64,000 nt of DNA. It comes from Bdellovibrionales bacterium. Lineage in GTDB: Bacteria; Bdellovibrionota; Bdellovibrionia; Bdellovibrionales; JAGQZY01. Every line of letters starts with the position of its first letter. Within the stretch, counting starts at the first letter, position 1. The DNA lies in assembly GCA_031426555.1 (NCBI GenBank), contig JANPLN010000015.1, positions 191,863 to 255,862 on the forward strand, read 5' to 3'. The notes below the pieces were generated by a model. It was not told where the DNA came from, ran no database searches, and saw only the letters and a list, made by a program, of their open reading frames with translations. Both the position numbers and the translations under genes were made by a program. Below, in pieces: positions 1-56,463 of the stretch.

Positions 1-3
1 GAA

Positions 4-552
4 GTGGTTATTAAATACAATACCAATGTGACGATCTTCCCAGAAAAAATCGTCGCTCTTTGGGCAAATTTTAAGACGGTTCGACTCAATTTAAGTATCG
101 ATGGCGTGGGCGCTACGAACGATTATATTCGTTTTCCTGCAAAATGGGCCTCGGTAGAAAAAAATTTAAAAAGCTTTTTTGAATTAAAAAAAGCGGGCGT
201 TCCCTTGGAAATCAGCGTGCATACAACCGTACAAATTTGTAATATTTTAGAGCTCGCAAAAATCCTTCAATACTTTAGAGAAAATTACGGCCTGACTCCG
301 TATTTTAATATTCTCAATCACCCTGCCTGTTTAAATATACGGTCTATGCCGCAGACCTTAAAAGACGTTGCGCTGCAAAGACTGCATCCTTGGGCCAATG
401 AAAAGGGAGTGGGCGAAGTGATTTCGTACATGCTGGCCGAGGATTGGTCGGAGTCTTACTGGCCAGAGTTTATCAAATACACGTCGCAACTAGATGCAAA
501 CCGCCATCAGAAATATATGGTCAGCGACGTCGATTTACAGCTTGTGGACTGA
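4..552 (+). CDS. C-terminal part of a radical SAM protein (N-terminal twitch-like class), truncated by the window edge
   Basis: YNTN, LSIDGVG..NDYIRFPAKW..VEKNL, HPACL and LD..R motifs align with the C-terminal halves of 6276..7700, 10097..11228 and 19989..21386. Confidence 0.85.
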   Translation: MVIKYNTNVTIFPEKIVALWANFKTVRLNLSIDGVGATNDYIRFPAKWASVEKNLKSFFELKKAGVPLEISVHTTVQICNILELAKILQYFRENYGLTPYFNILNHPACLNIRSMPQTLKDVALQRLHPWANEKGVGEVISYMLAEDWSESYWPEFIKYTSQLDANRHQKYMVSDVDLQLVD

Positions 553-579
553 TGGGGACTTAGATATGTAATTAGGGGT

Positions 580-1725
580 ATGGCTAATTACTGGTCCTCA
601 TATGATTTCACCAAAATCCCCTTTGCAGATATAGAGTCAGTAGGGCAGCGAACTCTCCTTTATCGAGATTTGTTTTGCGTCAGTTGGCTGCTGGGTCGTT
701 TTTGCAATTATAAATGCTCCTATTGTTGGCCCTACGCTCGCTCCGACACAAGAGATCACCGCCCCACAGAATTAGTTTTGAAAACGCTCAGCGAAATCAA
801 ACGTCAAGCGCGGGCGAGAAATTTTAACTCTTTTCATTTTTCGTTCAGCGGCGGTGAGCCAACACTTCACCCAGGATATCTGGACATACTAAAAACATAT
901 TCGGAAGATCAACCTCAGTGTAATTATCAATCATTGCACATGACAAGCAACATCAGTGCTGGTTTGGGTTACTTTAAAAAGTATGCCGAAGTTACCAAAA
1001 ATATAAATCGCGTGAGTATCACTGCCAGCTATCACAAAGAAATGACAACGAAAGAACCTTTTGCAGAAAAATTAATTTTTTTACAAGAGCAAGACATCAA
1101 CGTCACCATCAACATGGTCATGGTTCCTGAGCGCTTTGAGCTTTTGTGGGAAGAGGCTCTCTATTTTCACGAGCAGGGTATTAACGTTACCCTCAAGCCG
1201 CAAAGCAATCCAACGGCTACGGCGGTAGTTTCAGGATATTCTGATGAGATGTTAAAACGTTTACGCAACGGAATGCCACAAAGGGATTACACGACAAAAC
1301 GATTAGAGTCGAAAATGAAAACTTCGCAAAGACCAAAGCCGCGTCTCGCAGCACTGCCAGAAAAAGATGAAACTGGCGATGATATTCCTCAGATCATGCA
1401 AGTGGAGTTTAATGATAAGCTGGGAAAGAAGTGGTTTATGGACCAAGCCGAACGCTTTAACGCCTTTAATTTTAATCAATTCCGTGGCTGGGAATGTAGC
1501 GCGGGTTATCGCAGTATTATCATTCGTGAGCCCGATGGCGCCATTAAAAGAAGTTACAGCTGCAATGACAAACCCCTTGGCTTTATTGAAACCGGCTTCG
1601 AACTTTTTCCAACAGCAATGCCATGTATTACTCAGAGCTGCGTAAGTAGTGCGGACAGTAAAATTCCAAAACGTAAAGCGGGGTCCAAGTGGCCTCTTTG
1701 GCCTGGGGACACCGCGAGTGTATAA
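580..1725 (+). CDS. Radical SAM protein with C-terminal auxiliary Cys domain
   Basis: CNYKCSYC (CxxxCxxC), SGGEPT, C-terminal GWECSAG..C..PC....C. Confidence 0.92.
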   Translation: MANYWSSYDFTKIPFADIESVGQRTLLYRDLFCVSWLLGRFCNYKCSYCWPYARSDTRDHRPTELVLKTLSEIKRQARARNFNSFHFSFSGGEPTLHPGYLDILKTYSEDQPQCNYQSLHMTSNISAGLGYFKKYAEVTKNINRVSITASYHKEMTTKEPFAEKLIFLQEQDINVTINMVMVPERFELLWEEALYFHEQGINVTLKPQSNPTATAVVSGYSDEMLKRLRNGMPQRDYTTKRLESKMKTSQRPKPRLAALPEKDETGDDIPQIMQVEFNDKLGKKWFMDQAERFNAFNFNQFRGWECSAGYRSIIIREPDGAIKRSYSCNDKPLGFIETGFELFPTAMPCITQSCVSSADSKIPKRKAGSKWPLWPGDTASV

Positions 1726-2794
1726 GGCGTATGAAATACGGGTCGTTCACCTCGAAATAACCAGCAAATGCAATGCCTCGTGCCCAATGTGTTTGCGAAA
1801 TGTATGTGGTGGCAAGGTAAACCCCCAGCTGCCCCTTACAGAACTTTCGCTTTTTGATTTAAAAAAAATCTTCACTACTGATTTCGTTCAGCAGCTCGAC
1901 AGAATCTATTTATGTGGAAATTATGGGGATCCTGTAGCGGCACAAGATACGCTAGAGTCTCTAAAATATTTTAAGGAGACCAATCCGCAAATTCAACTGT
2001 CCCTGTTTTCAAATGCATCGGCACGCGCCGCGGTTTGGTGGCGCGAGCTCGCGACCCTGACCAAGGATGTGCATTTTGCAATTGATGGGCTCTCCGACAC
2101 CAATTCGATTTACCGCCGTGGTACCCAGTGGGAGGTCATTATGCGAAATGCACAGGCTTTTATTGATGCCGGTGGCCGCGCCATTTGGGATTATATTGTT
2201 TTTAGACATAACGAACACCAAATCGAAGAAGCGCAAGAGCTTGCAAAAAAAATGGGCTTTCATAAATTCAATTTAAAAAAAACCGGCAGATTTTTTAGCA
2301 ACACCAAAACCGAGGTAAAGTCGCAGCAAGCCGTCTACAACTTGGACGGTGAGATTGATTATTTCTTAGAGCTGCCTCTCAATCCAAAGTATCACAACGC
2401 AGCGCTGGTCAAAGAGGACGAGCTGGTGAAGAAGTATGGGCATCTCGAAAAATATTTAGATCAAACGCTTATCGACTGTAAAGTAGACGCAGAAAAAAGT
2501 GTGTATGTTTCGGCGGAAGGTTTCATTTTCCCCTGTTGTTGGACGGCGAATCAATTGTACCCTTGGTATTTGGAAAAAAGATCTTCACAGGTTTGGGATA
2601 TCATTCGTTCACTGCCAGAACAAGAACAAGAAATTTCGGCGCTCAAACAGCCATTGTCAAAGATCGTCGAAGGGGAGCTTTTTGCAAAAATCAAAGACAG
2701 CTGGTCATTGCCCAGCACTAAACTCGGCAAGCTGAAACCTTGTGCGAAAACCTGTGGGCGGGAATTTGATCCCTTTAGCGAGCAGTTTCGCTAG
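1718..2794 (+). CDS. Radical SAM protein with C-terminal SPASM/twitch-like domain
   Basis: HLEITSKCNASCPMC, GNYGDP, C-terminal CK..YVSAEGFIFPCCW..CAKTC; start moved to GTG 1718 (GGGG upstream, overlaps upstream stop). Confidence 0.9.
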   Translation: MYKAYEIRVVHLEITSKCNASCPMCLRNVCGGKVNPQLPLTELSLFDLKKIFTTDFVQQLDRIYLCGNYGDPVAAQDTLESLKYFKETNPQIQLSLFSNASARAAVWWRELATLTKDVHFAIDGLSDTNSIYRRGTQWEVIMRNAQAFIDAGGRAIWDYIVFRHNEHQIEEAQELAKKMGFHKFNLKKTGRFFSNTKTEVKSQQAVYNLDGEIDYFLELPLNPKYHNAALVKEDELVKKYGHLEKYLDQTLIDCKVDAEKSVYVSAEGFIFPCCWTANQLYPWYLEKRSSQVWDIIRSLPEQEQEISALKQPLSKIVEGELFAKIKDSWSLPSTKLGKLKPCAKTCGREFDPFSEQFR

Positions 2795-3963
2795 TGAGAA
2801 TTTTAATTGTTATATTTAGCCTGTTATTGTCGCCCTTATTAATGTTATTTGCCTTAGAAGGCGCAACTCGCTGGATTCTTCCTACGGACTTCTGGAATGG
2901 CCTTCAGTTACAAAAAAAAATTAACAGTAATTCGAATTTAGATATTTCACCGCTATATCGTTTAACTATGGATTTGGACTATCTTCCACAAACGCAGTTC
3001 GACCAACCCGTCTATGAACTTAAACCCCTCGTCAAAGACTATCGATATTTGCGTAAGAACACTTCTGGTTATGTTTTCAATGCGCCAAATGAAACCTTTC
3101 GGCACGTTGGGCGTGCTCTACAGGATGGGCAAATAATATTTGATGTCGAATATAATTTCGATGAACATGGGCGTCGAAAACTGCCTTTCGAACCTGAAAA
3201 TCCTTTTTTGAGTTCACGACACCTTATACTTTCAGGCTGTTCATTTGACTTTGGAGAAGGGCTTCAGGACAACGAAACATTGGCAGCTCAGTTACAAAAA
3301 CGCTTCCCTGGGAAAGTTTATAATTTAAGCCGATCAGGAGCGTCTGTCGTGGATGCTGTTGCGTTGATGCAAACAACCCAGGCATGGGATACAGTGGAGC
3401 CTTCGTCTGGCATGGTCCTCGCGCATTTTTCGATAAATTTGCATATGGTTAGATTTTTAGGCACGTTGATGAGTATCGGTCGGTGGAATCAGTTTGGAGC
3501 CTTTCTTGAGGAGGATCCAAAGAACTCTGGCCATTTTCGGTTTGGAGGACTGTACGCAAAAAACCAACCGTTTCGAACGGGTATCGGTATGGTAATGGCG
3601 CAATCGAATTTTTTAAAGGCCATCGAATTTGATTGGCCCCCCATCGATGATAGAGCTTTAGAAAACTACGCAAGGGTTCTTCTTTTTTTGAAGCTAAAAT
3701 ATCAGCAAAAAACTCGTTCCAGCAACCAACTGGTTGTTTACCTTCATCCTGGCGAGGAGCAAGCGAGAAGGATAATCCCATTTTTAGAAAAATATGGAAT
3801 TTATTATCTGGACTATTCCAATTTACTGCTCAAAAAGTTTGCCACGGAATCATTAACTATTCCTCACGAAGGGCATCCCTCAAAAGAGTATAATAGAATC
3901 TTGGGGCAACAAATTACGCACGATCTTACTTTGCAGGAGAACAGCCTAAAAATTTCTAATTAA
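2794..3963 (+). CDS. Membrane-anchored SGNH/GDSL-like hydrolase or acyltransferase-associated protein
   Basis: N-terminal TM helix ending LEGATR, GCSFDFGEG block I-like motif, C-terminal EGHPS. Confidence 0.7.
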   Translation: MRILIVIFSLLLSPLLMLFALEGATRWILPTDFWNGLQLQKKINSNSNLDISPLYRLTMDLDYLPQTQFDQPVYELKPLVKDYRYLRKNTSGYVFNAPNETFRHVGRALQDGQIIFDVEYNFDEHGRRKLPFEPENPFLSSRHLILSGCSFDFGEGLQDNETLAAQLQKRFPGKVYNLSRSGASVVDAVALMQTTQAWDTVEPSSGMVLAHFSINLHMVRFLGTLMSIGRWNQFGAFLEEDPKNSGHFRFGGLYAKNQPFRTGIGMVMAQSNFLKAIEFDWPPIDDRALENYARVLLFLKLKYQQKTRSSNQLVVYLHPGEEQARRIIPFLEKYGIYYLDYSNLLLKKFATESLTIPHEGHPSKEYNRILGQQITHDLTLQENSLKISN

Positions 3964-4109
3964 AAAATCGTGTAGATAAACGGTGTGGCAACAGTCCCGC
4001 TTCCTAAGTAGAGAAGTGCTGAAAGCGAAACAAGAACTAGAAAAAACGGAATCAGCCACCATTTTTTATTTTCGACGGCAAACTGCCAAAGTTCTAGAAT
4101 TAGCTTCAT
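3960..4109 (-). CDS. 49-aa SxtK/DUF5989-like membrane peptide (absent from the ORF track)
   Basis: Hand translation MKLILELWQFAVENKKWWLIPFFLVLVSLSALLYLGSGTVATPFIYTIF; KKWWLxP and PFIYTxF signature; ATGA overlap with the carbamoyltransferase stop. Confidence 0.88.
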   Translation of the reverse strand: MKLILELWQFAVENKKWWLIPFFLVLVSLSALLYLGSGTVATPFIYTIF

Positions 4110-5923
4110 TTTTTTGCCTCTATTATTATAAGTCTATGCATATTTTTTTTCTTTTCCAATATAAAGTTCCCCAAGACTAACAAATCCAGGTCCGTTTTTA
4201 AAAAACATAAAATGGCATCACGGGGGGACTCTACAATCGGTTCGCCGCGAACATTAAAACTCGTATTTACAAGCATTGGCACGCCGGTGCGCTGTTCAAA
4301 CATCTGGAGAAGCCGGTAAAGCAAAGGGTTTTGTTCCCGTGTTACCGTCTGAAGTCGAGCGGAGTAATCTAAGTGGGTCACTGCGGGAATCGCGGACCGC
4401 ACGGCTTTTATTCGTTCTTGAGAGGTGAAAAAATGACTGGAAGGCTCAAGCCGATGCTTTGGCAATAGATCGGCAACAAATAACATATAAGGGCTTTCCG
4501 AGGGACATCCGAAAAACCATTCATGGGCTTTTTCTGCCATCACAATCGGAGCAAAAGGCCGAAAGGATTCGCGAAATTTAATTTTCAAATTTAATTTTTC
4601 CTGCATCTCCGGTGAACGGGAGTCCGCAAGAATCGAACGCGACCCTAAAGCTCTCGGACCATACTCCGATCGGCCCTGAAACCAACCCACCGCATCTCCT
4701 TTAACTAAGGAGTCGCAGGTTTTTTCGAAAAGAGAAGCTTCGTCGTGCATTTCATAAACGAGCCCCATTTCGTCGAGACATTTTTGAATTTCATCATCTG
4801 TGTACTCAGTGCCTAACAAAGCATTAAACATGCTGTCACTATTTCTCAATGTGTACCGAGGCTTTTGAAAATGTAGGGAATGGGCAGCCAGCGCTGCACC
4901 GAGAGCACTTCCGGCGTCTCCTGCCGCGGGCTGAATCCATATCTCTTTAAAAGATCCATCGCGGAGGATTTGGCTATTACTCACACAGTTAAGAGCCACA
5001 CCACCAGAGAGGCACAGCGAGGGAAGCGAAAATTCTTTATGCAAAGAGCGCGTTAGGCAAAGCAAAAGATGATTGAGTGCAGCCTGTGTAGACGCAGCAA
5101 TATCCATGTAAACCTGCTCAATAAAAGATTCTGGAAGCCTTGGAGGTGCGCCAAAAAGCTCAGAAAGTTTTTCACTAAACATGTTCCGTGTTGAGGCAAA
5201 GTCAAAATACTGAAGATTGATCTCAAAGGAACCGTCATCTTTCATACAGACAAGATTTTTTAATATCGCATCAAAAAATCGTGGCTGCCCATAGGGCGCA
5301 AGACCCATGAGTTTGTATTCCCCTGAATTCACTTTGAATCCGCAAAAAGTCGTCATCGTGGAATAAAAGAGTCCGAGTGAATGTGGGAAATGGATCTCCT
5401 TTTGCATTTCGATTCGATTATTCTGTCCCACAGAAACGGTCGACGTCGACCACTCCCCCAGTCCATCCAAGGTGAGAATCACCGCCTCAGAAAATGGAGA
5501 AGGAAAGAAAGCACTGGCCGCATGACTGAGGTGATGCTCCGAAAAGAGCAGCTTCTTTTCGTCAAATCCAGCGTCAATCTCGCGTAGGGCTTTTAGAAGA
5601 TCATTTCGTAGAAACAAAGTTTTGGTAAAAGATTCTGAAAAGGTTTCAACAAACGAGACAGGTTTCCAGGGTGCATCGCGAAGAAAGCTCTCGATCTGCC
5701 GGTCTAGTTTTAGGAGTGGTTTTTCGTAAAACACAACAGCGTCAAGCTCGTGCAGCTTTAATTTGCTGTGGGCTAAACCCGCTAAAACTGAGCGACGTGG
5801 GAATTTTGAATCATTTTTTATCCTTGAGAATCGCTCCTCTTGCATCGCAAAAACCGGTCTGCCATTTTGCAGGAAGGCTGCAGCACTATCGTGATAGTAA
5901 CAAGAGACACCAAGTATATTCAT
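4106..5923 (-). CDS. O-carbamoyltransferase, NodU/CmcH/SxtI family
   Basis: HDSAAA, EERFSR, EHHLSHAASAF, SGEYKLMGLAPYG, GGVALNC, GPRALG, KFRESFRPFAP, NTSFNVRGEPIV. Confidence 0.96.
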   Translation of the reverse strand: MNILGVSCYYHDSAAAFLQNGRPVFAMQEERFSRIKNDSKFPRRSVLAGLAHSKLKLHELDAVVFYEKPLLKLDRQIESFLRDAPWKPVSFVETFSESFTKTLFLRNDLLKALREIDAGFDEKKLLFSEHHLSHAASAFFPSPFSEAVILTLDGLGEWSTSTVSVGQNNRIEMQKEIHFPHSLGLFYSTMTTFCGFKVNSGEYKLMGLAPYGQPRFFDAILKNLVCMKDDGSFEINLQYFDFASTRNMFSEKLSELFGAPPRLPESFIEQVYMDIAASTQAALNHLLLCLTRSLHKEFSLPSLCLSGGVALNCVSNSQILRDGSFKEIWIQPAAGDAGSALGAALAAHSLHFQKPRYTLRNSDSMFNALLGTEYTDDEIQKCLDEMGLVYEMHDEASLFEKTCDSLVKGDAVGWFQGRSEYGPRALGSRSILADSRSPEMQEKLNLKIKFRESFRPFAPIVMAEKAHEWFFGCPSESPYMLFVADLLPKHRLEPSSHFFTSQERIKAVRSAIPAVTHLDYSARLQTVTREQNPLLYRLLQMFEQRTGVPMLVNTSFNVRGEPIVESPRDAILCFLKTDLDLLVLGNFILEKKKNMHRLIIIEAKK

Positions 5924-5929
5924 GCCGCC

Positions 5930-6319
5930 TCAAAACATTCGATCAAAGCGTTGACTGCTGCGGCTCTTATGCCACCCATGGGTTGTGGTTCTCGATCGCA
6001 CAAGACGTAAACTTAATCCCAGGGGAGTTATGATTAGAAAATAAAAAAGGAGCAAAAAAACGGGCTGAAGCAACCAAGCTAAGACAATTCCGACATAAAA
6101 CCATAGGGTATTTAAAAAAGACGAGTAGCCTTGATGGAAAACAGCTGGAATCAATAGTAAGCAACTGAGTCCCCACGGGTGGGGAGCAAGGCAAAAGATA
6201 ACGATTGATAAAATGGCGGAAAAATAAGAAAAACTTTTCGGCGATGGACGAGGCGAATTTTTTAAACGGCGAAAATTAAATCGAGTCCACATAGACTTCA
6301 GATCGGGTCGAAGAATCAT
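5930..6319 (-). CDS. SxtJ-like membrane protein
   Basis: Hydrophobic helices, FYFLIITPLGL..R motif and C-terminal FDRMF; directly upstream of the carbamoyltransferase. Confidence 0.75.
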   Translation of the reverse strand: MILRPDLKSMWTRFNFRRLKNSPRPSPKSFSYFSAILSIVIFCLAPHPWGLSCLLLIPAVFHQGYSSFLNTLWFYVGIVLAWLLQPVFLLLFYFLIITPLGLSLRLVRSRTTTHGWHKSRSSQRFDRMF

Positions 6320-7700
6320 CTTGGTTTAAAAGCTCACCCATATCGGGGAAAACCGAAGCGAACGACGTCCCCCTGATAGAATCCATGCGCGTGATGTACT
6401 CACGGAATTGCGGCATTCTGTTAGACCAGTCTTCAGATTCCATAAACTTAAGCATTCCCTCGAGGCGTTTAATCCCGTAATCGTTATTTACAAATTCTGG
6501 ATCATTTCGGTAATTCTTAAGAAGCCACGAATAAAAACCTTCGTACTTACAGCGAATTTTTCGTTTAAACTCTTTAGGAAAAACTTTTACGTTCAAATGG
6601 GCGGGGTGATAGACAAAATGGTAATTAATCAAACCAGCGCCCAGAGGCCATGCATTTATTTTTTTAAAATTTTGTTCTAATTTCCATCGAATAAAGTCGG
6701 GTATGTAATACATGTTCAGCATCTGCACAGCACAAGCGATGGTGACTTCCACATGGTCTGGAGTTTCATCGAGCAGGCGCAAATGTTTTTCGATGGTTTC
6801 CCAGTTAGCGGGATAACGAATGTACGAATTCATTTCGTGGACGCTATCGATACTAAAGTGAAAACGGACACGGCGAAATTTTTCCCATAAAGTGAACAGT
6901 CTTTCGGGAAGTTCAATGCCGTTGCTGTTGTAGCGAAGTTCAATATTTTTTGCGTAGCCTCTTCGCACGCATTCCTCGAGAAGTTCGTAATGCTCTTCAA
7001 TGATGGTGCTTTCGCCCCCGGCAAAGTACAACTGTTGCATGTGCGGAATTTGCTCGTAGAGCTCTTCCCAAAAAATGGGATTGTCGCGATGCCAATCGTA
7101 ACTTGCGCCATCCACGCGACCGCTATTATCCCAGACCATAACTTGCTTCAGTTCCGCATTTTGGATCTGTGGGGAAAGCTTTTTCCAGTCTGAGACCCAA
7201 AGCGAACTGTCGTGGGGTGAACACATGATGCATTTCAAATTACATTTCGTACCGAGACGCAAATCCACATAATAAATTCGCGCGGGCACAGAGCCGTCCG
7301 TGGAGGTCTCATCGATCAATTTTTGCAAATCAATTCGTGAACTCCAATATTCGGTCTCCCAATTTCTTTTCGAGCGGTGGCCAGCAGCTTCCTCTTTAAA
7401 GCATTTTGTACACGACGCAGGAATTTCACCTGCCAGCATTTTCAGTCGCACATCACGCATGTATCCGTTGTTCCAGCCTTCCAAAAGGGGAGTGTGGTTC
7501 AGGTTGGCGGGTTTTCCGTTGTCGTTTTTTAAAATACCCACTTCTCCTCCCCAGATTTTGTCGTTGGTGGCCCCGGCGGAAGACGCGTTGGCCGTGCAAC
7601 AGACGCGCATGTGTCCGTTGGGCCGCGTAGAGAGATGAATCCACGGCAGAGCGCAGTAGGTTTTACTGGGGGGTAGGAGGGTTTTTTTATCCATGGGCAA
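6276..7700 (-). CDS. Radical SAM protein with N-terminal twitch-like Cys domain
   Basis: N-terminal CALPW..RVCC..CTKC, core CNLKCIMC, FAGGE, YNSNG, FSIDS. Confidence 0.93.
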   Translation of the reverse strand: MPMDKKTLLPPSKTYCALPWIHLSTRPNGHMRVCCTANASSAGATNDKIWGGEVGILKNDNGKPANLNHTPLLEGWNNGYMRDVRLKMLAGEIPASCTKCFKEEAAGHRSKRNWETEYWSSRIDLQKLIDETSTDGSVPARIYYVDLRLGTKCNLKCIMCSPHDSSLWVSDWKKLSPQIQNAELKQVMVWDNSGRVDGASYDWHRDNPIFWEELYEQIPHMQQLYFAGGESTIIEEHYELLEECVRRGYAKNIELRYNSNGIELPERLFTLWEKFRRVRFHFSIDSVHEMNSYIRYPANWETIEKHLRLLDETPDHVEVTIACAVQMLNMYYIPDFIRWKLEQNFKKINAWPLGAGLINYHFVYHPAHLNVKVFPKEFKRKIRCKYEGFYSWLLKNYRNDPEFVNNDYGIKRLEGMLKFMESEDWSNRMPQFREYITRMDSIRGTSFASVFPDMGELLNQDDSSTRSEVYVDSI

Positions 7701-7813
7701 AAGAATATGTCAGAGACGTTAGAACAGGCAAAGGGAGAGACGCACTTAACAAGCCGAGTTAGCTGATATCAATCCAACTTCACATCCGTTTAGGAATCGA
7801 GTACAGCCATCCC

Positions 7814-8977
7814 ATGGAAACGAGCGAGTACAAAAACAAAGTCATCAATCAAGAAGCCATGCATTTTTGTTTAAATGTAGTGGAATTTTTTGAGGCTTTA
7901 CCAGGCGACCGAGAGTTTTTTAAAAAAGCGGCTCTGGATGGGCTCACATTTTGCCAATCTCTGCAGGAAGTGGGGCTCTACATCTTAAGCCTTAAGGAGT
8001 TGGCACTTCATCATCCGGTGGTTGATAAGGATAAGTTTTTGAATGTGGCCCACCGAGTTGGAAACGACACGCGACATTTGTTTGCATTCTTACAAACTAC
8101 AAAGCTCTTGGCAGAAAAAAAAGATTTTAAATCATGGGATCATTTTTTTAGCGCCGCAATGGTTGCCGTGGAAAACGAAGAATCCATGGCGGACTATCTG
8201 ACAACAGTGCGCCACCTCACAGAGAAACTGAATTTCACCCAATGGCCCGATTTTTTCACAATGGTAAAGCGCCTCAAGGAGCAATCTTCGTTTTTGGAGG
8301 TAGAGGTATTTTCTGCCGTGCGCCATGGTATCCAATACTTCGAGGAAAGCGACACCATTAAAGGCTTGTTTCGAGTTCTTGCCGAGACACCGCAGTTTTC
8401 TGGAGCCTTTGCCTATGGGCAGCTCGACAGCAAAAAATGGCTCATCGAAGAAGCGCAAAAAGTATGGGGCCCTCACTGGGGCACGGTTTTCGTTCTTGCG
8501 GGATGGATTGGCGTATTGCCTCGGATGATCTACGACAAAAAAATCACAACCACAAAAATCTATTCTTTCGATATCGACGGTAGCGCCACCAGAGCTTCTG
8601 AATTTCTTAACCAGGCGGAAGTTCAAAACGATTGGTCCTTTAAATCATCCTCGCAAGACATTACGACGATGCACTTTCCAACAACTTTCACGGTACTTCG
8701 TAAAGATGGAAGCCCTTGTGAGCTTTTGACGATGCCAGATGTCGTGATCAACACCAGCTGCGAACACATCCAAGACATCACATCGTGGTGGTCGCAAATT
8801 CCCTTAGGTACCAGGGTGATTTTGCAATCGAACGATGGATTTCACATTCCTGAACATGTTGCTTGTTTTAAGAGTCTCGAAGACTTTGCGAAGGCGATGT
8901 CCCTCACTCGAACCGATTTCATCGGGGAGAAAGCGTTACCGGAATTCAATCGTTTTATGTTGATTGGTGTAAAGTAG
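7814..8977 (+). CDS. Protein with helical N-terminus and C-terminal class I SAM-dependent methyltransferase-like domain
   Basis: VFVLAGWIG (motif I-like), SFDID (acidic motif II), DVVINTSCEH, LQSND, RFMLIG. Confidence 0.65.
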   Translation: METSEYKNKVINQEAMHFCLNVVEFFEALPGDREFFKKAALDGLTFCQSLQEVGLYILSLKELALHHPVVDKDKFLNVAHRVGNDTRHLFAFLQTTKLLAEKKDFKSWDHFFSAAMVAVENEESMADYLTTVRHLTEKLNFTQWPDFFTMVKRLKEQSSFLEVEVFSAVRHGIQYFEESDTIKGLFRVLAETPQFSGAFAYGQLDSKKWLIEEAQKVWGPHWGTVFVLAGWIGVLPRMIYDKKITTTKIYSFDIDGSATRASEFLNQAEVQNDWSFKSSSQDITTMHFPTTFTVLRKDGSPCELLTMPDVVINTSCEHIQDITSWWSQIPLGTRVILQSNDGFHIPEHVACFKSLEDFAKAMSLTRTDFIGEKALPEFNRFMLIGVK

Positions 8978-10043
8978 TTTCTTTTCGAGCCTTAAAATCA
9001 TGTGAGCAATAACATCGCTTGTGCGGACAAATGACAGGCGTCGTTGGCCACTGCACAGAATCTAAGTTTTCCACTTTTTTAAGATGCTCGACCCGTCGCC
9101 ACGAACCTAACGGTGGGCTCACTCCGCACATAACAGATCTTTTGATGTCTCCATTTTGTTCGAGGTAAAGAGTGTCGATACCAACATAGCAATTCCAGCC
9201 CTGCCAATTATTTAAATTATTAGTTGTTAAAAACGAGTTCGAAATCATTCCCGATGTTTCGTTCGTGTTCCTCTTAAAATACTGATTGTTTAATTCTTTG
9301 GCTCGCTTCCCTGTGAACATGGTACGCCAAGGTAACTTGTTGGCATGAATTGAATTCGATTTCATCCACTCAAGTTGTTCCTCACGATAAGGCCAGTCCT
9401 GATTTACTTTTGCTTCGGGAGCGACTTCTTGAGCAAACTTCGACGACGGGAGGAGTGTGAGTTTTTGTAAGGAAATTGTTTTCGCTTTGCTAAATTTTTT
9501 AAAATACCCATGGGCAGCGACGCATTCGTCCCATTTTTTCGAGTACATCAAAAGGAGAATGCAAACCGACACTCCCTTGCGAGTGAGAATGTTGGAAACC
9601 GCCGTTAAATGCTTGGGATCGGCAAATTCCGGGTGATAACTTAAAGTCACATGATGAAAGAATTCCGCATGTCGTTCCCACCAATCGAGGGTGCGAATCC
9701 CGTTGGTGACCAGCATCACTTTATTTTTGGTTTCGTGAATAGCGTTGATGAGGTGCTCAAAGTCTTTCCAAAGCGTGACTTCGCCTCCGAGAAGTTCAAA
9801 AAAGATGGTCTTTTTTTTATGCAGAGTTTTAAAGATCTCGTCGATGGTCTTTACGGTTTTTACAGCCTCGCTCAGCGTGGGCCAAGCGAAACTTCCATCA
9901 TGGCATTCCTTGGCACAATAGGCGCATTTGTAAGTGCAATGATTGCCGAGGTTCCAATTCACAAAGAGCAATGGATTTTCAAACGTTGTTCGATTGGTAA
10001 GAGATGGCCCGAAACCATCAAATTTTTCAAAGGCGATCGACAT
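8955..10043 (-). CDS. Radical SAM protein, same subfamily as 580..1725
   Basis: VNWNLGNHCTYKCAYC, LGGEVT, LSYH, C-terminal GWNCYVG..C..ICPHKRCYC. Confidence 0.92.
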   Translation of the reverse strand: MSIAFEKFDGFGPSLTNRTTFENPLLFVNWNLGNHCTYKCAYCAKECHDGSFAWPTLSEAVKTVKTIDEIFKTLHKKKTIFFELLGGEVTLWKDFEHLINAIHETKNKVMLVTNGIRTLDWWERHAEFFHHVTLSYHPEFADPKHLTAVSNILTRKGVSVCILLLMYSKKWDECVAAHGYFKKFSKAKTISLQKLTLLPSSKFAQEVAPEAKVNQDWPYREEQLEWMKSNSIHANKLPWRTMFTGKRAKELNNQYFKRNTNETSGMISNSFLTTNNLNNWQGWNCYVGIDTLYLEQNGDIKRSVMCGVSPPLGSWRRVEHLKKVENLDSVQWPTTPVICPHKRCYCSHDFKARKETTLHQST

Positions 10044-10096
10044 GACCTAAATCTATTGTTGTTCTACTTTGTCGGCTAGTTTATTCTCGAAGTCAT

Positions 10097-11228
10097 ATGG
10101 CACTGGGCGGCAACTCACGATTTTGTTCTCTTCCGTTTGTTCGACGAGTTGTTGCGCCGTCGGGAATGCTCCGACCTTGTTGTGATTTTTCGGCACCCTA
10201 CAGCTACAGCGACGAGGATTTCAAAAATTTGCAAGCTGCGTTATTGGCCGATATTCCCCATCCCCATTGCAGGATCTGCTGGGAAAAAGAAGCGGTGGGT
10301 GTGGAGTCGCTGCGCTCCGAAAAAACCTACGATAACTTAAATCGAATTCGAGTTCTCGAATTGAATTTATCAAACCTCTGCAACCTGAAGTGTAGAATGT
10401 GCGGTTCAGATTCCAGCAGTGCATGGATTGAGGATGAGATCTTTCTGAGGGAAAAAATTATCGATGATCCGTTTCGACCAAAACAAATTGAAAAGCTTGA
10501 GCGGGCTTTTAATAACAAAAAAGCTCTTTTTGATTTTTTAAATTCTTTAGATTTGCAGGATTTGGAGCACATCACGTTTTTTGGCGGTGAGCCTTTTCTT
10601 CAACCACTGTTTGCGGAAGTGCTGGAGTATTTAATCCGTAGTAATAGAACCAATATTTCTCTTCGTGTGACAACAAATGGAACAATTGTTTTAGATAAAC
10701 ATTTGTCCCTGCTAAAACAGTTTGAGCGCGTTGATTACAGACTGAGTATAGAGGCCGTTGGAAGTTTGTATAAATACATCCGGGGTGGTGAAAAGTTTTC
10801 CTTGGCCGACGTCGAAAAAAAATCTTCATAATATTAAAAACACCACCCACTTTCAGGTTTCTGCAAACTGCGCCCTCAGCGCATACAGCGCTTTTGGAAT
10901 TGCAGATCTTTACATTTGGCTGAACGAAAATCTTGGTGGCGCCGTTGGAAAGGCGCATTGGTATGATGTTTTTGATCCTCCATATCTCGCACCGAAGGTG
11001 CTCCCTTTAGCGATCCGTTTACGAGCAAGAGATCACAATGTTGAAATTCTTCAAAACCATGGGCTTTTATCAAAACACCTTGAACTAGAGGTAAGCAGGT
11101 TACTGCAAATACAAATACCCACGAAACGCGAGGAAACTGCGCAATTTTTAAAATTTACTCGGATATTGGATGAAAGAAGGAATGAAAACTTTTTTTCTTT
11201 TTTACCAAAGGATATCGATTTTATTTAA
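10097..11228 (+). pseudogene. Twitch-like radical SAM gene split by a one-base frameshift in an A8 run (10815-10822)
   Basis: 5' ORF has CSLPF..RPCC..CRIC, CNLKCRMC, GGEP; 3' ORF has PPYL and FTRILDERRNENF; removing one A gives VEKNL as in the paralogue at 4..552. Confidence 0.85.
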
Positions 11229-17658: not shown

Positions 17659-19350
17659 TTGGTGAGATTTTATTTTTTTGGTACGGTAACGGTCTTTTCT
17701 TTCTTCACTCAAGCCGCATTTGCTTACACAAATAATGGTAACAACCCTGGCAACAACAATGCTTCGGGTTACAACGGTGGTGGCTCATCACGAGGTTCCA
17801 CCAGCACAGGCTCTACGCGCTCTGGCTCTACGAGCACTTCAAGTTCCTCGCGAAGCAACACCGGTAACAACCCTGGCAATAACAATGCTGCAGGTTACAA
17901 TGGTGGGACATCTCGGAGTTCAAGCAGCACAGGCTCTACGCGCTCTGGCTCTACGAGTACTTCAAGTTCCTCGCGAAGAAACACCGGTAACAATCCGGGC
18001 AACAACAATGCTTCAGGTTACAACGGTGGTGGCTCATCACGAAGTTCAAGCAGCACAGGCTCTACGCGCTCTGGCTCTACAAGTACTTCAAGTTCTTCGC
18101 GAAGCAACACCGGTAACAACCCAGGCAATAACAACGCTGCAGGTTATAACGGCGGCACTCGAAGTTCATCAAGCTCAGGAAGTTCGACTTCCATGACTCG
18201 CGCAGAAGCGCAGAGATACACATCATCAGTCTCGACGGGAACGGCAAGAACAACTGCGCCAACCATGACGCGCGCCCAGGCGCAGGGGTATACATCGGCA
18301 ATGAGTTATGCGGGAACCCCCGAGGGTGTTCGCAGAGCCAATCAAGCCGCTGTGCTGTCGGGGTTTAGAAATGCGGAGGCAAGCTATAGAGGTCCTGCAG
18401 CCGGTACTGATTTATTTTCGGGAACTGGTCACTTGAACGATTATCAACGATCATTTTATCGAGGTGTGCACCAGCACTACACGCGGGCCGGTGTGGACCC
18501 CACACAACAACAAGTGGCTAGCGGACCGCTGCAAGACATGCTGAGCGTCCACGGAACCAACGTTACGCCGTATGACGCGCAGTTTGCGAGAGCACTGGAC
18601 GACGGGTACCGACGTGGGTTGGTTTCCATTTCGGTGCCAGGTCGAACATTTGATGGAGCACTGTTAAACGATCTCGCTCCAGCCCAACGATTTGCTCTGC
18701 AAAATTCGGTGGTGGTCGTCGGTGATGGTCAGTTTCTCATGGAAAGCGTCCAGCTCACTGGAGCCAATGGGTATTCATCAGGATCCGTGTTTTCAAGGGC
18801 GGCCACTGGCGGTCTTGTTGTTGTTAACCAGACAAGTCTTAACTTTACTTCGCGGACGCGGCGAGAGTTTGTTCAGGATACACTTTATCATGAACTGGAT
18901 CACGCCGCCGACCATGCCATTCGCGCCCATTCAAGAGCTGTCCTCGACGGACGAGTTCCAGGGGTGACAGCACGAGATCTTCAGTTGGCAGAAGAAGCCC
19001 ACGCTTTAACTACCGCCTTGACCAATCGAACGCTGGTTTCACAAATTGAAAATGTAACCATCGAAAACGGCGTGGTTGTTACTGAAGACACCGCCCGCCG
19101 AATCGCGGCCGTGAATCCCGATTTTTTGGTGAAGGACGAGTATTATATGCGGCTGAACGAGATGGAATCTTATTTTAGTCAACCAAATGTACCGGTCGAG
19201 GATCTCGCGGAGCGACTGTCTATGACGAGCAATTCGGGGCTGACTCAGCAAGAGGCGCGAGAAATCGCCCAGATTTTAAGTGAGAGCCCAGCTTTGGGCC
19301 TCGTGCGCGACGTTACAAATTCCTATGCTGAACAACATTTAAAACCATAA
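17659..19350 (+). CDS. Exported protein with Gly/Ser/Asn tandem repeats and C-terminal HExxH zinc-metalloprotease-like domain
   Basis: Signal peptide (..QAAFA), repeats, LYHELDH and downstream NEMESY. Confidence 0.7.
   Translation: MVRFYFFGTVTVFSFFTQAAFAYTNNGNNPGNNNASGYNGGGSSRGSTSTGSTRSGSTSTSSSSRSNTGNNPGNNNAAGYNGGTSRSSSSTGSTRSGSTSTSSSSRRNTGNNPGNNNASGYNGGGSSRSSSSTGSTRSGSTSTSSSSRSNTGNNPGNNNAAGYNGGTRSSSSSGSSTSMTRAEAQRYTSSVSTGTARTTAPTMTRAQAQGYTSAMSYAGTPEGVRRANQAAVLSGFRNAEASYRGPAAGTDLFSGTGHLNDYQRSFYRGVHQHYTRAGVDPTQQQVASGPLQDMLSVHGTNVTPYDAQFARALDDGYRRGLVSISVPGRTFDGALLNDLAPAQRFALQNSVVVVGDGQFLMESVQLTGANGYSSGSVFSRAATGGLVVVNQTSLNFTSRTRREFVQDTLYHELDHAADHAIRAHSRAVLDGRVPGVTARDLQLAEEAHALTTALTNRTLVSQIENVTIENGVVVTEDTARRIAAVNPDFLVKDEYYMRLNEMESYFSQPNVPVEDLAERLSMTSNSGLTQQEAREIAQILSESPALGLVRDVTNSYAEQHLKP
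17737..18185 (+). repeat. In-frame coding tandem repeat, about 3.5 units of 126/123 bp
   Basis: Unit starts at 17737, 17863, 17986, 18112 encoding GNNPGNNNA(S/A)GYNGG..STGSTRSGSTSTSSSSR. Confidence 0.95.
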
Positions 19351-19364
19351 TTGAGGGGCTACCA

Positions 19365-20006
19365 ATGAAAACTATTTCTAAAAAAGCAATCATGATAAGC
19401 ACCTTCCTTGCAATCATCTCCGGTACAACTTTCTTATTTTTTAACGCAACACTCTTCGATCGCACGTTGAGTGAGTTGATCCAAGAATCAAATAAAATTG
19501 AAAGATTGCTAAACACAAAGAGAAATCGGAGCGAAGCGAGCAAGGGATTGCTACGGGAGCACCAAGAAAGTATTAGCAACGTTATCGCCTTTAGAGCGAA
19601 AGCAAAAAGTTGCAGAGAATTGATCCGCAGAGATAAAAATCTGAAAACTGGAATCTATACGCTGTATCCTAATGACGCCGAAATTGCAGGGACTCCCGTT
19701 TTTTGCAACATAGAAGGTCGCACTGTAACTGAGATCGCCGTACAAACAAAATTGGTCAAATCCAAACAGCAGTTGGCGATTGAACAGCAAGCTGCACAAG
19801 CCCAACGAAACGCTGAGGAAGCAGCGCAAGCGGCCGAGGCGGCTCGAGTTGCACAAGAAGCGGTAGAAGCTGCAAGGGTTGCCGATTTAGCAAGAGCAGC
19901 AGCAGCAGCTCGAATCTCTCAAGCGGCCAAAGCGAAAGCTTACAAAGATATGTTATACAAGAAGGATTTAATGGGTACTTCCAGCCGTTCAGGGAATAGC
20001 CGCTGA
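19365..20006 (+). CDS. Membrane-anchored protein with a fibrinogen-C-like fragment and Ala/Gln-rich coiled coil
   Basis: N-terminal TM; SCREL..KTGIYTLYP..PVFCN; EEAAQAAEAARVA repeats. Confidence 0.55.
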   Translation: MKTISKKAIMISTFLAIISGTTFLFFNATLFDRTLSELIQESNKIERLLNTKRNRSEASKGLLREHQESISNVIAFRAKAKSCRELIRRDKNLKTGIYTLYPNDAEIAGTPVFCNIEGRTVTEIAVQTKLVKSKQQLAIEQQAAQAQRNAEEAAQAAEAARVAQEAVEAARVADLARAAAAARISQAAKAKAYKDMLYKKDLMGTSSRSGNSR

Positions 20007-54803: not shown

Positions 54804-55529
54804 TTATAGCGTTAATAAAGTGCGAGAGTCAGGTGTTATTTTTTGCGAAGTTTTCAAAAATTCATGATCAAGCCAACCGAAGTCGTTGATGGTTTGTAAA
54901 TCCTCGCCGCGCTCCAATGCCGTGAGAGCAAATTGCCGCCCTTGCTGAGCGCCAAGAAGGCACCAGTTTCCGTGCAGGCTGTGTGAACCATCCGAAAGCC
55001 AAATGGATAGCCGCTCGCGGCTTTGGACATCGTCGGGATCTTTGTTAAGGTTGTGTGTGAGTTTTGCACATTCGCGAAAGGCCCCGCGCCAACTTTCCAA
55101 AGGAGTGGCATTAAAACACGTTGTGGAAGCGAGGGTCATAACCGGAATGTACTTCGGAGCAATGGTAGTGGCGACGTCGGGGCCTGTGGCTTTTGGTGTT
55201 TGAAAGAGACTGCGGTTGTAAAGTTTAATACCACCGAAGCCATAGACCAGTTGGTTGACGGCGTTCTGTGCGCGCCAAACATACAATGAGTCTTTGTTCG
55301 GAGAAAAGGGAACTGAAAAATCGAAATCATGTTTTACCAGATTGTCTCCATCGACGATGAAGTAAAAGTCTGTATCACTGCATCCGGCGATAATGGCGTG
55401 AGCCTTGTAGACACCGCGGATTCCATGCAGGCGCTTTGCGCGGGGAAAACGCGTGGTCAGCTCGAGCCAATTGCTCTCGGCATTGCTCTCGGAATAGGAA
55501 AGAAAAAAAATATCAAACGCTGGCATCAT
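54804..55529 (-). CDS. Glycosyltransferase-A-like hypothetical protein
   Basis: [23 protein letters not shown] (DxD-like), [21 protein letters not shown]. Confidence 0.6.
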
Positions 55530-56463
55530 GAGTGGGAGAGGCGGACCCGTCGGTGAACATGGGCCCTTGTCGAGGACGGTTGAAATAAACCGATTTAAAA
55601 AATTCAGAACTTTGCGGATCTAAAAGTTGAATACCAAGGGCTATTTTTTTATTGAGCGCGAGTCCAAGTTTTTCGATCTCTTTGAGTAAAAACACTTCGC
55701 TGGGCAGTTGTGATTTTTTGGCGAAGGTTTCTTGCCAGTAAGTTTCGAACCAGTCGTAGTCGCGTATTTTTTCGATAGGTAATTTGTTAAAATAGAACTC
55801 ATAGAGTCCAAGGCGAGCACCGAAAATGGCCCACAGCCCGTTGGTGACGTCCGCGCCCACCGAGCACCAAATTTTGAGTCGCTCTAAATTTGCTGGGTGC
55901 AGAAGCTGTAAAAAAGAGGCTGGATTTTTACGGTCGAAATCCAGGGGCAAGCCGCGATCCAGAGACATTTTAATGCCCTCACGAAAACCGGCGCGGAAGG
56001 CTTGAAAAGGTGTGTGGTGAATGTGCGAGGTGGAAAGAGTTTCTGGCATTTGGTAATAGTTCAGATCGAAACAAAAATCCACCGCGCCTTGCGGGCTGGT
56101 GCTGTCTTCGTGGGATTCGAGTTTAATGACGATTTCTCGGGGCCAGTTTTTAATTCCACCATTGCCGTAGGCGAGACCATTGATTGAATTTTTAGCAGAC
56201 CAAGATAAAACTTGCGTCGTAATGATCAGTTTCATTGGTATTTTTAAGCTTGAGAAATTGCTGTGCAGAACGTTATCGCCGTCGATGGTAAAAAAACGCA
56301 ACGTACGCGCTCGTTCGGCGCACTCACGGTGCGCGCGATTAAAACCTTTAATGCCATCCACCCTTTGGGCAAATGGGATCTGTGCTTTGACCGCTTCCCA
56401 AAAAAGATCTTTTTGGGGCTCGTCGTAACTTATGAAAAACACGTCCATATTCTGCATGGGCAC
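55513..56463 (-). CDS. Glycosyltransferase-A-like hypothetical protein, paralogue of 54804..55529
   Basis: DVFFISYDEP, DGIKG..AH, FTIDGDN, NGLAYGNGGIK, FRAGFREGIK. Confidence 0.6.
   Translation of the reverse strand: MPMQNMDVFFISYDEPQKDLFWEAVKAQIPFAQRVDGIKGFNRAHRECAERARTLRFFTIDGDNVLHSNFSSLKIPMKLIITTQVLSWSAKNSINGLAYGNGGIKNWPREIVIKLESHEDSTSPQGAVDFCFDLNYYQMPETLSTSHIHHTPFQAFRAGFREGIKMSLDRGLPLDFDRKNPASFLQLLHPANLERLKIWCSVGADVTNGLWAIFGARLGLYEFYFNKLPIEKIRDYDWFETYWQETFAKKSQLPSEVFLLKEIEKLGLALNKKIALGIQLLDPQSSEFFKSVYFNRPRQGPMFTDGSASPTHDASV

What the first reader, a model, noticed from the sequence alone, without database searches (positions are those of the whole stretch)
4..11228. Six-radical-SAM cluster with carbamoyltransferase-SxtJ-SxtK, SGNH-like and methyltransferase-like genes: candidate undescribed tailoring pathway
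Seen: six radical SAM genes in three architectures. These are N-terminal twitch-like Cys domain (6276, 10097, probably 4..552), WxLGxxCxYKCxYC with a GWxCxxG tail (580, 8955), and C-terminal SPASM/twitch (1718). They are interleaved with a NodU/CmcH carbamoyltransferase, its two small membrane partners, a TM-anchored SGNH-like protein and a class I MTase-like protein. No NRPS/PKS, precursor peptide, protease or exporter is visible. Established: NodU/CmcH/TobZ enzymes O-carbamoylate sugars or small molecules, and the twitch enzyme BtrN oxidises an aminocyclitol. Inference: a pathway that heavily modifies a surface glycan, lipid headgroup or nucleotide sugar. From memory and unverified, similar gene sets occur in large marine tailed-phage genomes. 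The cluster continues past the left edge.
Basis: partly seen in the sequence, partly recalled or inferred. Interest (0 to 1): 0.85.

Follow-up and report, generated by a model that had tools for sequence, protein, structure and literature searches.

The report
Predator–phage radical-SAM sugar-tailoring island
An uncultured bacterium of the Bdellovibrio group carries a 34-kb block of 32 genes, eleven for iron-sulfur radical enzymes, whose core is shared with large phages; it likely edits a surface sugar structure, and a tiny tyrosine-tailed membrane protein in it is predicted to pass on carbamoyl groups.

Summary
Observation confirmed, with corrections. The six radical SAM (rSAM) genes are the right third of a 33.9-kb, 32-gene chromosomal island with 11 rSAMs, eight of NCBIfam NF033640. 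The last (10097-11228) is split by a one-base insertion.

The genes do not form one fixed pathway. A core of three rSAMs (580, 1718, 6276) co-occurs in 15 of 16 related loci examined, with the methyltransferase-fold gene in 12. Orthologues occur on viral contigs (580: 578 contigs; best 80 at 62-69%). A glycosyltransferase-fold partner lies at 54804-56463.

Carbamoyltransferase-SxtJ-SxtK-SGNH is an insert: present in 4 of 4 same-genus loci, 0 of 12 others. SxtK ends in the DltX/PatA acyl-shuttle motif FxYxxF in 30 of 30 loci; the only other such ending in this genome belongs to an MBOAT.

Best reading (0.5): modular tailoring of a surface glycan, with a predicted MBOAT-free carbamoyl-tyrosine relay. 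The substrate is unknown and nothing is shown biochemically. This scan noted both the rSAM arrays and the SxtK motif before, on other DNA; my paper searches found neither.

The parts
1..552 (+). 3' part of an N-terminal-twitch rSAM (NF033640), 404 aa, which starts left of the window; the island continues 22.6 kb to the left (G000 C15:169215)
   Evidence: (350 bits, cut-off 170)
580..1725 (+). Core rSAM 'W1' (WxLGxxCxYxCxYC, four C-terminal Cys)
   Evidence: 71-96% identity in relatives; 578 viral contigs
1718..2794 (+). Core rSAM 'C1' with C-terminal twitch-type cysteines
   Evidence: (phrog_21308, 1e-27)
2794..3963 (+). Membrane-anchored SGNH-like protein (Ser150, EGHPS at 359); predicted carbamoyl acceptor and transferase; only 43% identical to its counterpart in the nearest relative
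   Evidence: no Pfam hit
3960..4109 (-). SxtK/DUF5989 membrane microprotein, 49 aa, ending FIYTIF (FxYxxF, Tyr46); predicted carbamoyl shuttle
   Evidence: motif defined in PMC12148441 (passages)
4106..5923 (-). NodU/CmcH/TobZ-type O-carbamoyltransferase, 605 aa
   Evidence: novobiocin carbamoyltransferase 5e-88, GdmN, TobZ
5930..6319 (-). SxtJ-like small membrane protein, two hydrophobic segments
   Evidence: no Pfam hit, label by position
6276..7700 (-). Core N-terminal-twitch rSAM 'N7' (NF033640)
   Evidence: 425 bits; 72-96%; at least 50% identity in 40 of 80 viral loci
7814..8977 (+). Core partner: helical N-terminal half plus class I SAM methyltransferase fold (conserved INTSCEH)
8955..10043 (-). 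Accessory W-type rSAM 'W2'
10097..11228 (+). Accessory NF033640 rSAM 'N8', split by a one-base insertion in the A run at 10815-10822; intact in the nearest relative
54804..55529 (-). Displaced core partner 'F3': GT-A-fold glycosyltransferase-like protein with DGD motif
   Evidence: 3.5e-78 to the family profile; model of a homologue
55513..56463 (-). Second F3 paralogue
   Evidence: (2.1e-76)

Best explanation
The genes are the right end of a 32-gene chromosomal island that likely tailors a surface sugar structure (a glycolipid, polysaccharide or protein-linked glycan) with a conserved core and swappable add-on modules.

Shown: a core of three rSAMs and a methyltransferase-fold protein, usually with a GT-A-fold partner, is kept in relatives and large phages; the other genes come and go.

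Inferred: the cytoplasmic core oxidises, rearranges or methylates a sugar or cyclitol building block, and the GT-A protein attaches it. The upstream aminotransferase-like, amidinotransferase and rSAM genes would add an amino and then a guanidino group, as in streptidine synthesis.

Predicted: the carbamoyltransferase, held at the membrane by SxtJ, would load a carbamoyl group on Tyr46 of SxtK. SxtK would hand it to Ser150 of the outward-facing SGNH protein, which would transfer it to the glycan. This resembles DltB-DltX-DltD but has no MBOAT. How the group crosses the membrane is unexplained.
For: Core. W1, C1 and N7 lie together in 15 of 16 loci fetched around N7 orthologues, with the methyltransferase in 12 of 16; F3 lies beside N7 in 9 of 12 loci outside this genus. 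All 50 listed structural matches of the F3 homologue model are glycosyl- or nucleotidyltransferase-type chains or structural relatives, best Z 9.0, rmsd 2.9, 140 aligned; its E20 and D68 are invariant.

Envelope signs. Ten of the 32 island proteins have membrane segments, among them all three large membrane-anchored SGNH-like proteins of the genome. A Kdo-hydroxylase-like gene is present (PF11004 over cut-off). Same-genus islands add NeuB and cytidylyltransferase genes.

Amine module. The amidinotransferase's best solved relative is inosamine-phosphate amidinotransferase (7.5e-34). It lies beside an aminotransferase-like gene in three relatives' loci.

Cultured phages. In Ralstonia phage RsoM2USA, F3-rSAM-F3-methyltransferase follows tail sheath, epimerase and tail tube genes. 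In Pelagibacter phage Mosig, rSAMs, an ArnB-like gene, carbamoyltransferase, methyltransferase, glycosyltransferase and epimerase lie next to tail-fibre and VrlC genes. PMC7029224 (passages) reports glycosyltransferases and rSAM cassettes in the host-recognition cluster of such phages and proposes O-chain modification.

Shuttle. FxYxxF is terminal in 30 of 30 and 20 of 20 (partly overlapping) SxtK loci. Only 1 of 11,316 genome ORFs of 60 aa or more ends so, and it is an MBOAT beside an AlgX-family gene. The sxtI-J-K-L set also pairs the trio with a GDSL protein (PMC2684587, passages).
Against: No substrate, product or activity is shown.

The island has no flippase, polymerase or recognisable nucleotide-sugar synthase. 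F3 lies 43 kb away here, its Z-scores are middling, and the same fold covers nucleotidyltransferases. Within 10 kb of W1 in 80 viral loci, F3 appears in only 6, the methyltransferase in 8 and the carbamoyltransferase in 1.

An SGNH protein was found within 9.5 kb in only 7 of 20 SxtK loci. Mosig's carbamoyltransferase showed no SxtJ or SxtK match among the 21 genes compared. sxtJ, K and L also occur in small-molecule clusters (PMC10157211, passages). The motif counts come from best-scoring family members and so lean towards the consensus. With its tail outside and no MBOAT, Tyr46 has no evident access to the cytoplasmic enzyme.

W1's best solved relatives are viperins and MoaA, which act on nucleotides. 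The amidinotransferase has His where its solved best match has the Asp recalled as catalytic, as do all 4 homologues printed.
Confidence: 0.5

Rival explanations
1. The island makes a diffusible or lipid-linked small molecule, such as a guanidino- and carbamoyl-bearing aminocyclitol or acyl-sugar, not a surface polymer.
For: The amidinotransferase is closest to inosamine-phosphate amidinotransferase and SxtG, and the carbamoyltransferase to novobiocin, geldanamycin and tobramycin enzymes. sxtI/J/K/L-type genes sit in saxitoxin and suomilide clusters (passages). Viral loci add ketoacyl synthase (13 of 80), desaturase (22) and AMP-binding genes (10). PMC7824862 (passages) leaves capsule decoration or a metabolite open for cyanophage carbamoyltransferase clusters.
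Against: No NRPS, PKS, exporter or resistance gene was found in the island. Gene content varies widely between close relatives. It has three membrane-anchored SGNH-like proteins. In two cultured phages the homologues lie beside tail genes.
Confidence: 0.2
2. The enzymes modify protein side chains directly, for example on phage tail fibres and the adhesins or pili of the predator.
For: SPASM/twitch rSAMs, AspH-family hydroxylases, nitroreductase-fold and GNAT genes all have peptide-acting members (established knowledge). Homologues lie by tail genes in two cultured phages, and a tail-fibre domain is within 10 kb in 10 of 80 viral loci.
Against: There is no room for a precursor gene (largest gap 118 bases), no recognition element or protease was found, and peptide-maturase models score far below their cut-offs. 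The GT-A partner and sugar genes point to a glycan even if it is protein-linked.
Confidence: 0.15
3. The core modifies nucleotides or nucleic acids (DNA hypermodification, tRNA modification or viperin-like chain terminators).
For: The W1 profile's best solved matches are viperins (1e-8) and MoaA. QueC-like genes lie within 10 kb of W1 in 42 of 80 viral loci, and genes read from their sequence as thymidylate synthase (16) and dihydrofolate reductase (20) flank some (these two labels are recalled, not scanned).
Against: The viperin family score is 44 bits against a cut-off of 180. The QueC hit is below cut-off, and this genome has no copy of that family. Ten membrane proteins in the island make little sense for DNA.
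Confidence: 0.1
4. The island is a collection point for phage-derived genes with no common product, or a decaying prophage remnant.
For: It has slightly lower GC (43.8 against 46.0%), mixed gene orientation, one frameshifted gene, satellite blocks on two other contigs, and families whose Atlas clusters are 82-100% viral.
Against: PHROGs gave no virion or integrase hit for the 24 island proteins scanned. The chromosomal address is the same in 4 same-genus genomes and one other genus. dN/dS is 0.04-0.28. The paralogues are 23-33% identical to each other, and nearly all are closer to a gene of another genus or a phage.
Confidence: 0.05

Closest known systems
NCBIfam NF033640 (N_Twi_rSAM, twitch domain-containing radical SAM protein)
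   Same: Seven intact island genes score 259-425 bits (cut-off 170); the eighth scores 166 plus 58 in two pieces.
   Different: It is a family label with no reaction named in the output. My paper search found no mention of it. The W-type and C-type partners score far below the cut-off.
DltB-DltX-DltD and PatA-PatB acyl-tyrosine shuttles (PMC12148441, passages read)
   Same: A single-pass membrane microprotein with terminal FxYxxF and invariant Tyr, next to a membrane-anchored SGNH-like protein.
   Different: There is no MBOAT in the module. The donor enzyme is a soluble carbamoyltransferase, SxtJ is an extra part, and an SGNH protein was nearby in only 7 of 20 loci.
sxtI-sxtJ-sxtK-sxtL of the saxitoxin cluster (PMC2684587, passages read)
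   Same: The same four kinds of gene; an amidinotransferase related to SxtG also lies in the island.
   Different: No hit to a PKS-like or other saxitoxin core gene among the island proteins scanned; the context is 11 rSAMs.
TobZ, NovN, GdmN, NodU O-carbamoyltransferases
   Same: Both Pfam domains and matches at 5e-88 to 1e-65.
   Different: NodU model 160 bits against cut-off 1000; the acceptor is unknown. That those enzymes transfer directly to the acceptor is recalled knowledge.
Host-recognition clusters of pelagimyophages and carbamoyltransferase clusters of jumbo cyanophages (PMC7029224, PMC7824862, passages read)
   Same: Variable islands of glycosyltransferases, rSAMs, 2OG oxygenases, carbamoyl- and methyltransferases; Mosig shares several families with this genome.
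   Different: Here the set is chromosomal in a bacterium, stable at one address and combined with membrane proteins. Neither paper's passages name these rSAM families or test a product.
Streptidine pathway (StrB1) and BtrN (roles recalled)
   Same: Amidinotransferase closest to StrB1, beside an aminotransferase-like gene and twitch rSAMs.
   Different: His for Asp at a conserved site. BtrN was not among the 22 solved matches of the W1 profile; the other rSAMs were not searched against solved structures.

Membership tests
NF033640 N_Twi_rSAM | Score over the curated cut-off of 170 bits | tested here: met
   350 (gene at 1-552) and 425 (6276); five more upstream at 259-375; split gene 166 + 58
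NF033640 N_Twi_rSAM | Cys-rich domain in front of the CxxxCxxC core | tested here: met
   C16, C34, C35, C97, C100 in 67 of 69 orthologues; core at 153/157/160
NF033640 N_Twi_rSAM | The extra cysteines bind an auxiliary Fe-S cluster | not testable with these tools
   needs spectroscopy or a solved structure
NodU/CmcH/TobZ carbamoyltransferases | Carbam_trans_N and Carbam_trans_C domains | tested here: met
   (289 and 231 bits)
NodU equivalog | NF041651 cut-off 1000 bits | tested here: not met
   160 bits
SxtK / DUF5989 | PF19451 over cut-off | tested here: met
   68.4 bits, cut-off 27
SxtJ | Profile match to a curated SxtJ family | tested here: inconclusive
   no Pfam hit at E<=0.01; homologues beside SxtK in 16 of 20 loci
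DltX/PatA acyl-tyrosine shuttle systems | Terminal FxYxxF after a membrane helix | tested here: met
DltX/PatA acyl-tyrosine shuttle systems | An MBOAT partner that loads the tyrosine | tested here: not met
   no MBOAT hit among island proteins; the MBOAT with this motif lies on another contig with its own AlgX-family gene
DltX/PatA acyl-tyrosine shuttle systems | SGNH partner with Ser-His-acid triad | tested here: inconclusive
   motifs present and gene adjacent, but no Pfam hit; nearby in 7 of 20 other loci
DltX/PatA acyl-tyrosine shuttle systems | Covalent acyl-tyrosine intermediate | not testable with these tools
   needs biochemistry
Class I SAM methyltransferases (7814) | Rossmann-type methyltransferase fold | tested here: met
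   Z 16.2, rmsd 2.7, 164 aligned; activity and substrate not shown
GT-A glycosyltransferases (F3) | GT-A fold with DxD motif | tested here: inconclusive
   Z 6.7-9.0, nucleotidyltransferases included; probability 1.9% against four GT2 proteins; DGD conserved
RiPP clusters with rSAM maturases | Precursor gene, recognition element or protease, maturase model over cut-off | tested here: not met
   a distant precursor is not excluded
Prokaryotic viperins | NF038283 cut-off 180 bits | tested here: not met
   44 bits (580), 51 bits (8955)
Saxitoxin cluster | SxtA-type PKS-like core | tested here: not met
   no such hit among island proteins; the rest of the genome was not searched for it

The most novel reading that the evidence does not exclude
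Bdellovibrio-type predators and jumbo phages share one ancient radical-SAM, methyltransferase and glycosyltransferase core that builds a radical-edited glycan on the structures they use to grip bacterial cells. In this genus the glycan is carbamoylated outside the cytoplasm by an MBOAT-free tyrosine shuttle, which would also give SxtJ, SxtK and SxtL their long-missing function.
Probability: 0.17. Interest if true: 0.85.

Novelty: new variant of a known kind. Interest (0 to 1): 0.6.

Why it matters
NF033640 and its W- and C-type partners occur in up to about 30 matches per genome in this bacterial family and 15-25 per phage record, yet my searches found no paper on them. A three-enzyme core at 45-70% identity between bacteria and phages narrows the question to a few proteins. 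A cultured marine phage carries related genes, so the product can be looked for. The SxtK motif gives a direct test (Tyr46, Ser150, +43 Da) of how carbamoyl groups might reach molecules outside the cytoplasm. It would also explain a microprotein family with 6,213 representative hits whose saxitoxin members are listed as hypothetical in the paper read.

Tried and rejected
Complex prediction of carbamoyltransferase, SxtJ and SxtK was not available; no verdict. No model of W1 was made, so its auxiliary site and fold neighbours are untested. Foldseek 'pdb' was never run.

Expression: no RNA holder was listed. The one contig laid on the frameshift has the same letters but may be this DNA's source, so it is no independent proof.

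Direction of transfer: in a 57-row tree of W1, 23 of 26 viral rows form one supported clade with three rows from non-Bdellovibrionota bins (probably phage contigs), and the window groups with Bdellovibrionales. The outgroups are saturated and only 26 dereplicated rows from the best 80 of 578 viral hits went in, so no donor is claimed.

My recalled label 'HTTM-like' for the polytopic membrane proteins got no Pfam support (0 of 13 homologues over cut-off; none for this genome's two). A BtaA/DUF3419 link for the upstream 'FASG' family was inconclusive (probability 17%), and there was none for the methyltransferase. Sequence searches of solved structures found nothing for the methyltransferase, F3 or the aminotransferase-like protein.

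SxtJ-SxtK fusions: one candidate among 150 representatives, possibly a frame error. 127 of 150 end in FxYxxF, 20 carry it internally before unrelated tails and 3 lack it. Cultured phages held no W1 match and only 21-25% matches to N7.

Paper searches: twitch domain, radical SAM, phage, carbamoyltransferase; SxtJ, SxtK, DUF5989, DltX, FXYXXF; NF033640, N-terminal twitch; Bdellovibrionota; cultured phages. None listed a paper tying SxtK to the shuttle motif or studying these rSAMs. The library lacks most subscription journals. No supplements were read; the supplementary gene tables of PMC10157211 and PMC5332604 may bear on this. PMC3544137 was a false hit (an SXTK lipase motif). In PMC8504454 (passages) the ten virion bands do not include the F3-rSAM-methyltransferase genes.

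Full report
Setting. The window is the right end of contig C15 of a 3.14-Mb genome. Its nearest relatives are titled Bdellovibrionales (W1 is 97% identical to one), so the organism is placed there by inference. Right of the cluster lie a deaminase gene and genes read from their sequence as rpsU, dnaG and rpoD, then a tRNA. PHROGs gave no virion hit for the 24 island proteins scanned.

The observation. The six rSAM genes, the carbamoyltransferase, its two small partners, the SGNH-like and the methyltransferase-like gene are all there. Three points need adding. The first gene starts left of the window. The last is split by one extra A at 10815-10822 against an intact orthologue; both halves still show low dN/dS (0.08, 0.13), so the break is likely recent. 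The cluster runs from C15:169215 to 203090: 32 genes, largest gap 118 bases, 11 rSAMs of which 8 are NF033640. The upstream part adds a nitroreductase, a DMFA2_C protein, two AspH-family hydroxylases, a Kdo-hydroxylase-like gene, an amidinotransferase, an aminotransferase-like gene, two more SGNH-like proteins and five membrane proteins of no known family.

Core and modules. NF033640 is over cut-off in 25 of 41 genomes searched and in none of 14 controls. A close orthologue of the 6276 gene (423-445 bits) is listed for 19 of the 25 genomes of this family. I fetched 18-55 kb around it in 16 of the 18 others. W1, C1 and N7 lie together in 15 of 16, and the methyltransferase in 12. The carbamoyltransferase with an SGNH-like gene sits between C1 and N7 in 4 of 4 same-genus loci and in 0 of 12 others. 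In 9 of those 12 a different gene, F3, lies beside N7. This genome has its two F3 genes at 54804-56463. In one phylum-wide sample DUF5989 occurs in 90 of 251 genomes and W1 in 11 of 251, so the carbamoyl module leads its own life. The SGNH protein is only 43% identical to its counterpart in the nearest relative while its neighbours are 85-94% identical, which would fit an acceptor-choosing part (inference).

Phages. W1 relatives were confirmed in 578 of 582 candidate stretches of viral contigs; the best 80 were kept (62-69%). Within 10 kb, 40 of 80 have an N7 orthologue at 50% or more and 26 of 80 a C1 at 40% or more. Frequent neighbours are AspH-like (47), QueC-like (42), nitroreductase (35), B12-rSAM (33), aminotransferase-like (32), dehydrogenase (31), desaturase (22) and ketoacyl synthase genes (13). 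The methyltransferase (8), F3 (6) and carbamoyltransferase (1) are rare at that distance. Five long viral records hold 15-25 NF033640 matches each. PMC5332604 (passages) noted a T4-like genome with 12 rSAM genes but read them as iron-sulfur metabolism. Two cultured phages carry parts of the set beside tail genes: RsoM2USA (F3, rSAM, F3, methyltransferase) and Mosig (rSAMs, carbamoyltransferase, methyltransferase, glycosyltransferase, epimerase). The W1 tree shows several exchanges (at least 5 label changes) but no reliable root.

Folds. The 7814 protein has a class I methyltransferase domain with no substrate clue, since many families tie. An F3 homologue models well (pLDDT 91.1) and matches GT-A-type chains at middling Z. 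W1's profile matches viperins, MoaA and anSME weakly. The amidinotransferase is closest to inosamine-phosphate amidinotransferase but has His for a conserved Asp.

The microprotein. PMC12148441 (passages) defines FXYXXF as the acyl-shuttle motif of DltX and PatA, whose tyrosine is acylated and passes the group to an SGNH serine. SxtK here is a 49-aa single-pass protein with basic residues before the helix and FIYTIF at its end. The motif is terminal in 30 of 30 best loci and in 20 of 20 wider, partly overlapping loci; Pro43, Phe44, Tyr46 and Phe49 are invariant in 32 aligned rows. The only other such ending among 11,316 ORFs is an MBOAT beside an AlgX-family gene. In the 20 wider loci the carbamoyltransferase is present in 18, SxtJ in 16, an SGNH in 7 and rSAMs of this group in 7; 55 of 101 neighbours were scanned with Pfam and all ORFs with my own SGNH profile. 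I noted this idea. The scan's earlier reports, seen, state the same and are not independent support.

Verdict. What is shown is a real, selected, modular island with a conserved bacterium-phage core and an inserted carbamoyl module whose microprotein carries a known shuttle motif. What is inferred is the target (surface glycan 0.5, small molecule 0.2, protein 0.15, nucleic acid 0.1, no common product 0.05) and every chemical step. The parts belong to catalogued families, while their combination and the MBOAT-free relay were not found in the papers searched. I file it as a new variant of a known kind, interest 0.6. The scan has reported both the rSAM arrays and the SxtK motif on other DNA. This window adds both in one locus, the core-versus-insert split, the displaced F3 pair and two cultured phages with related blocks.

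Noticed in passing
window 19989-21386 (-): A ninth NF033640 gene (247 bits) stands alone 9 kb right of the island. Its nearest match among the sequences compared was the rSAM of phage RsoM2USA's F3 block (25%).
   Followed up: partly
G000 C30:138280-151791 (L006) and C35:106-2775: Satellite blocks with the phage-type neighbours that the island lacks: AspH-like genes, short-chain dehydrogenase, two nitroreductases, an N-twitch rSAM, desaturase, TauD.
   Followed up: partly
G000 C68:4774-6890 (L005): Two further W-type rSAMs, next to sequence that looks like an rRNA operon (the rRNA reading is mine, not scanned).
   Followed up: no
L001:9292-10374 (C15:181291-182373): Amidinotransferase subfamily with FHAA in place of FDAA in this genome and in all 4 homologues printed, two of them viral.
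   Followed up: partly
L001:947-2203 and L001:4888-7110: 'FASG' family without Pfam match, mostly viral in the Atlas, once fused to AspH; faint likeness to the SAM-binding motif of BtaA/DUF3419.
   Followed up: partly
L001:3430-4894 and L001:16688-17954: Two pairs of a polytopic membrane protein and a single-pass partner; the polytopic kind recurs in the fetched loci of 10 of 16 relatives and has no Pfam family.
   Followed up: partly
G000 C21:6608-7759 (L219): A full DUF3419/BtaA-type gene (381 bits), which suggests betaine-lipid synthesis.
   Followed up: no
window 17659-19350 (+): 563-aa protein with an N-terminal hydrophobic stretch and four repeats of an Asn/Gly/Ser-rich unit.
   Followed up: no
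L078, L081, L086: W1 loci titled Crocinitomicaceae, Acidimicrobiaceae and Gammaproteobacteria fall inside the viral clade and are probably phage contigs in bacterial bins.
   Followed up: partly
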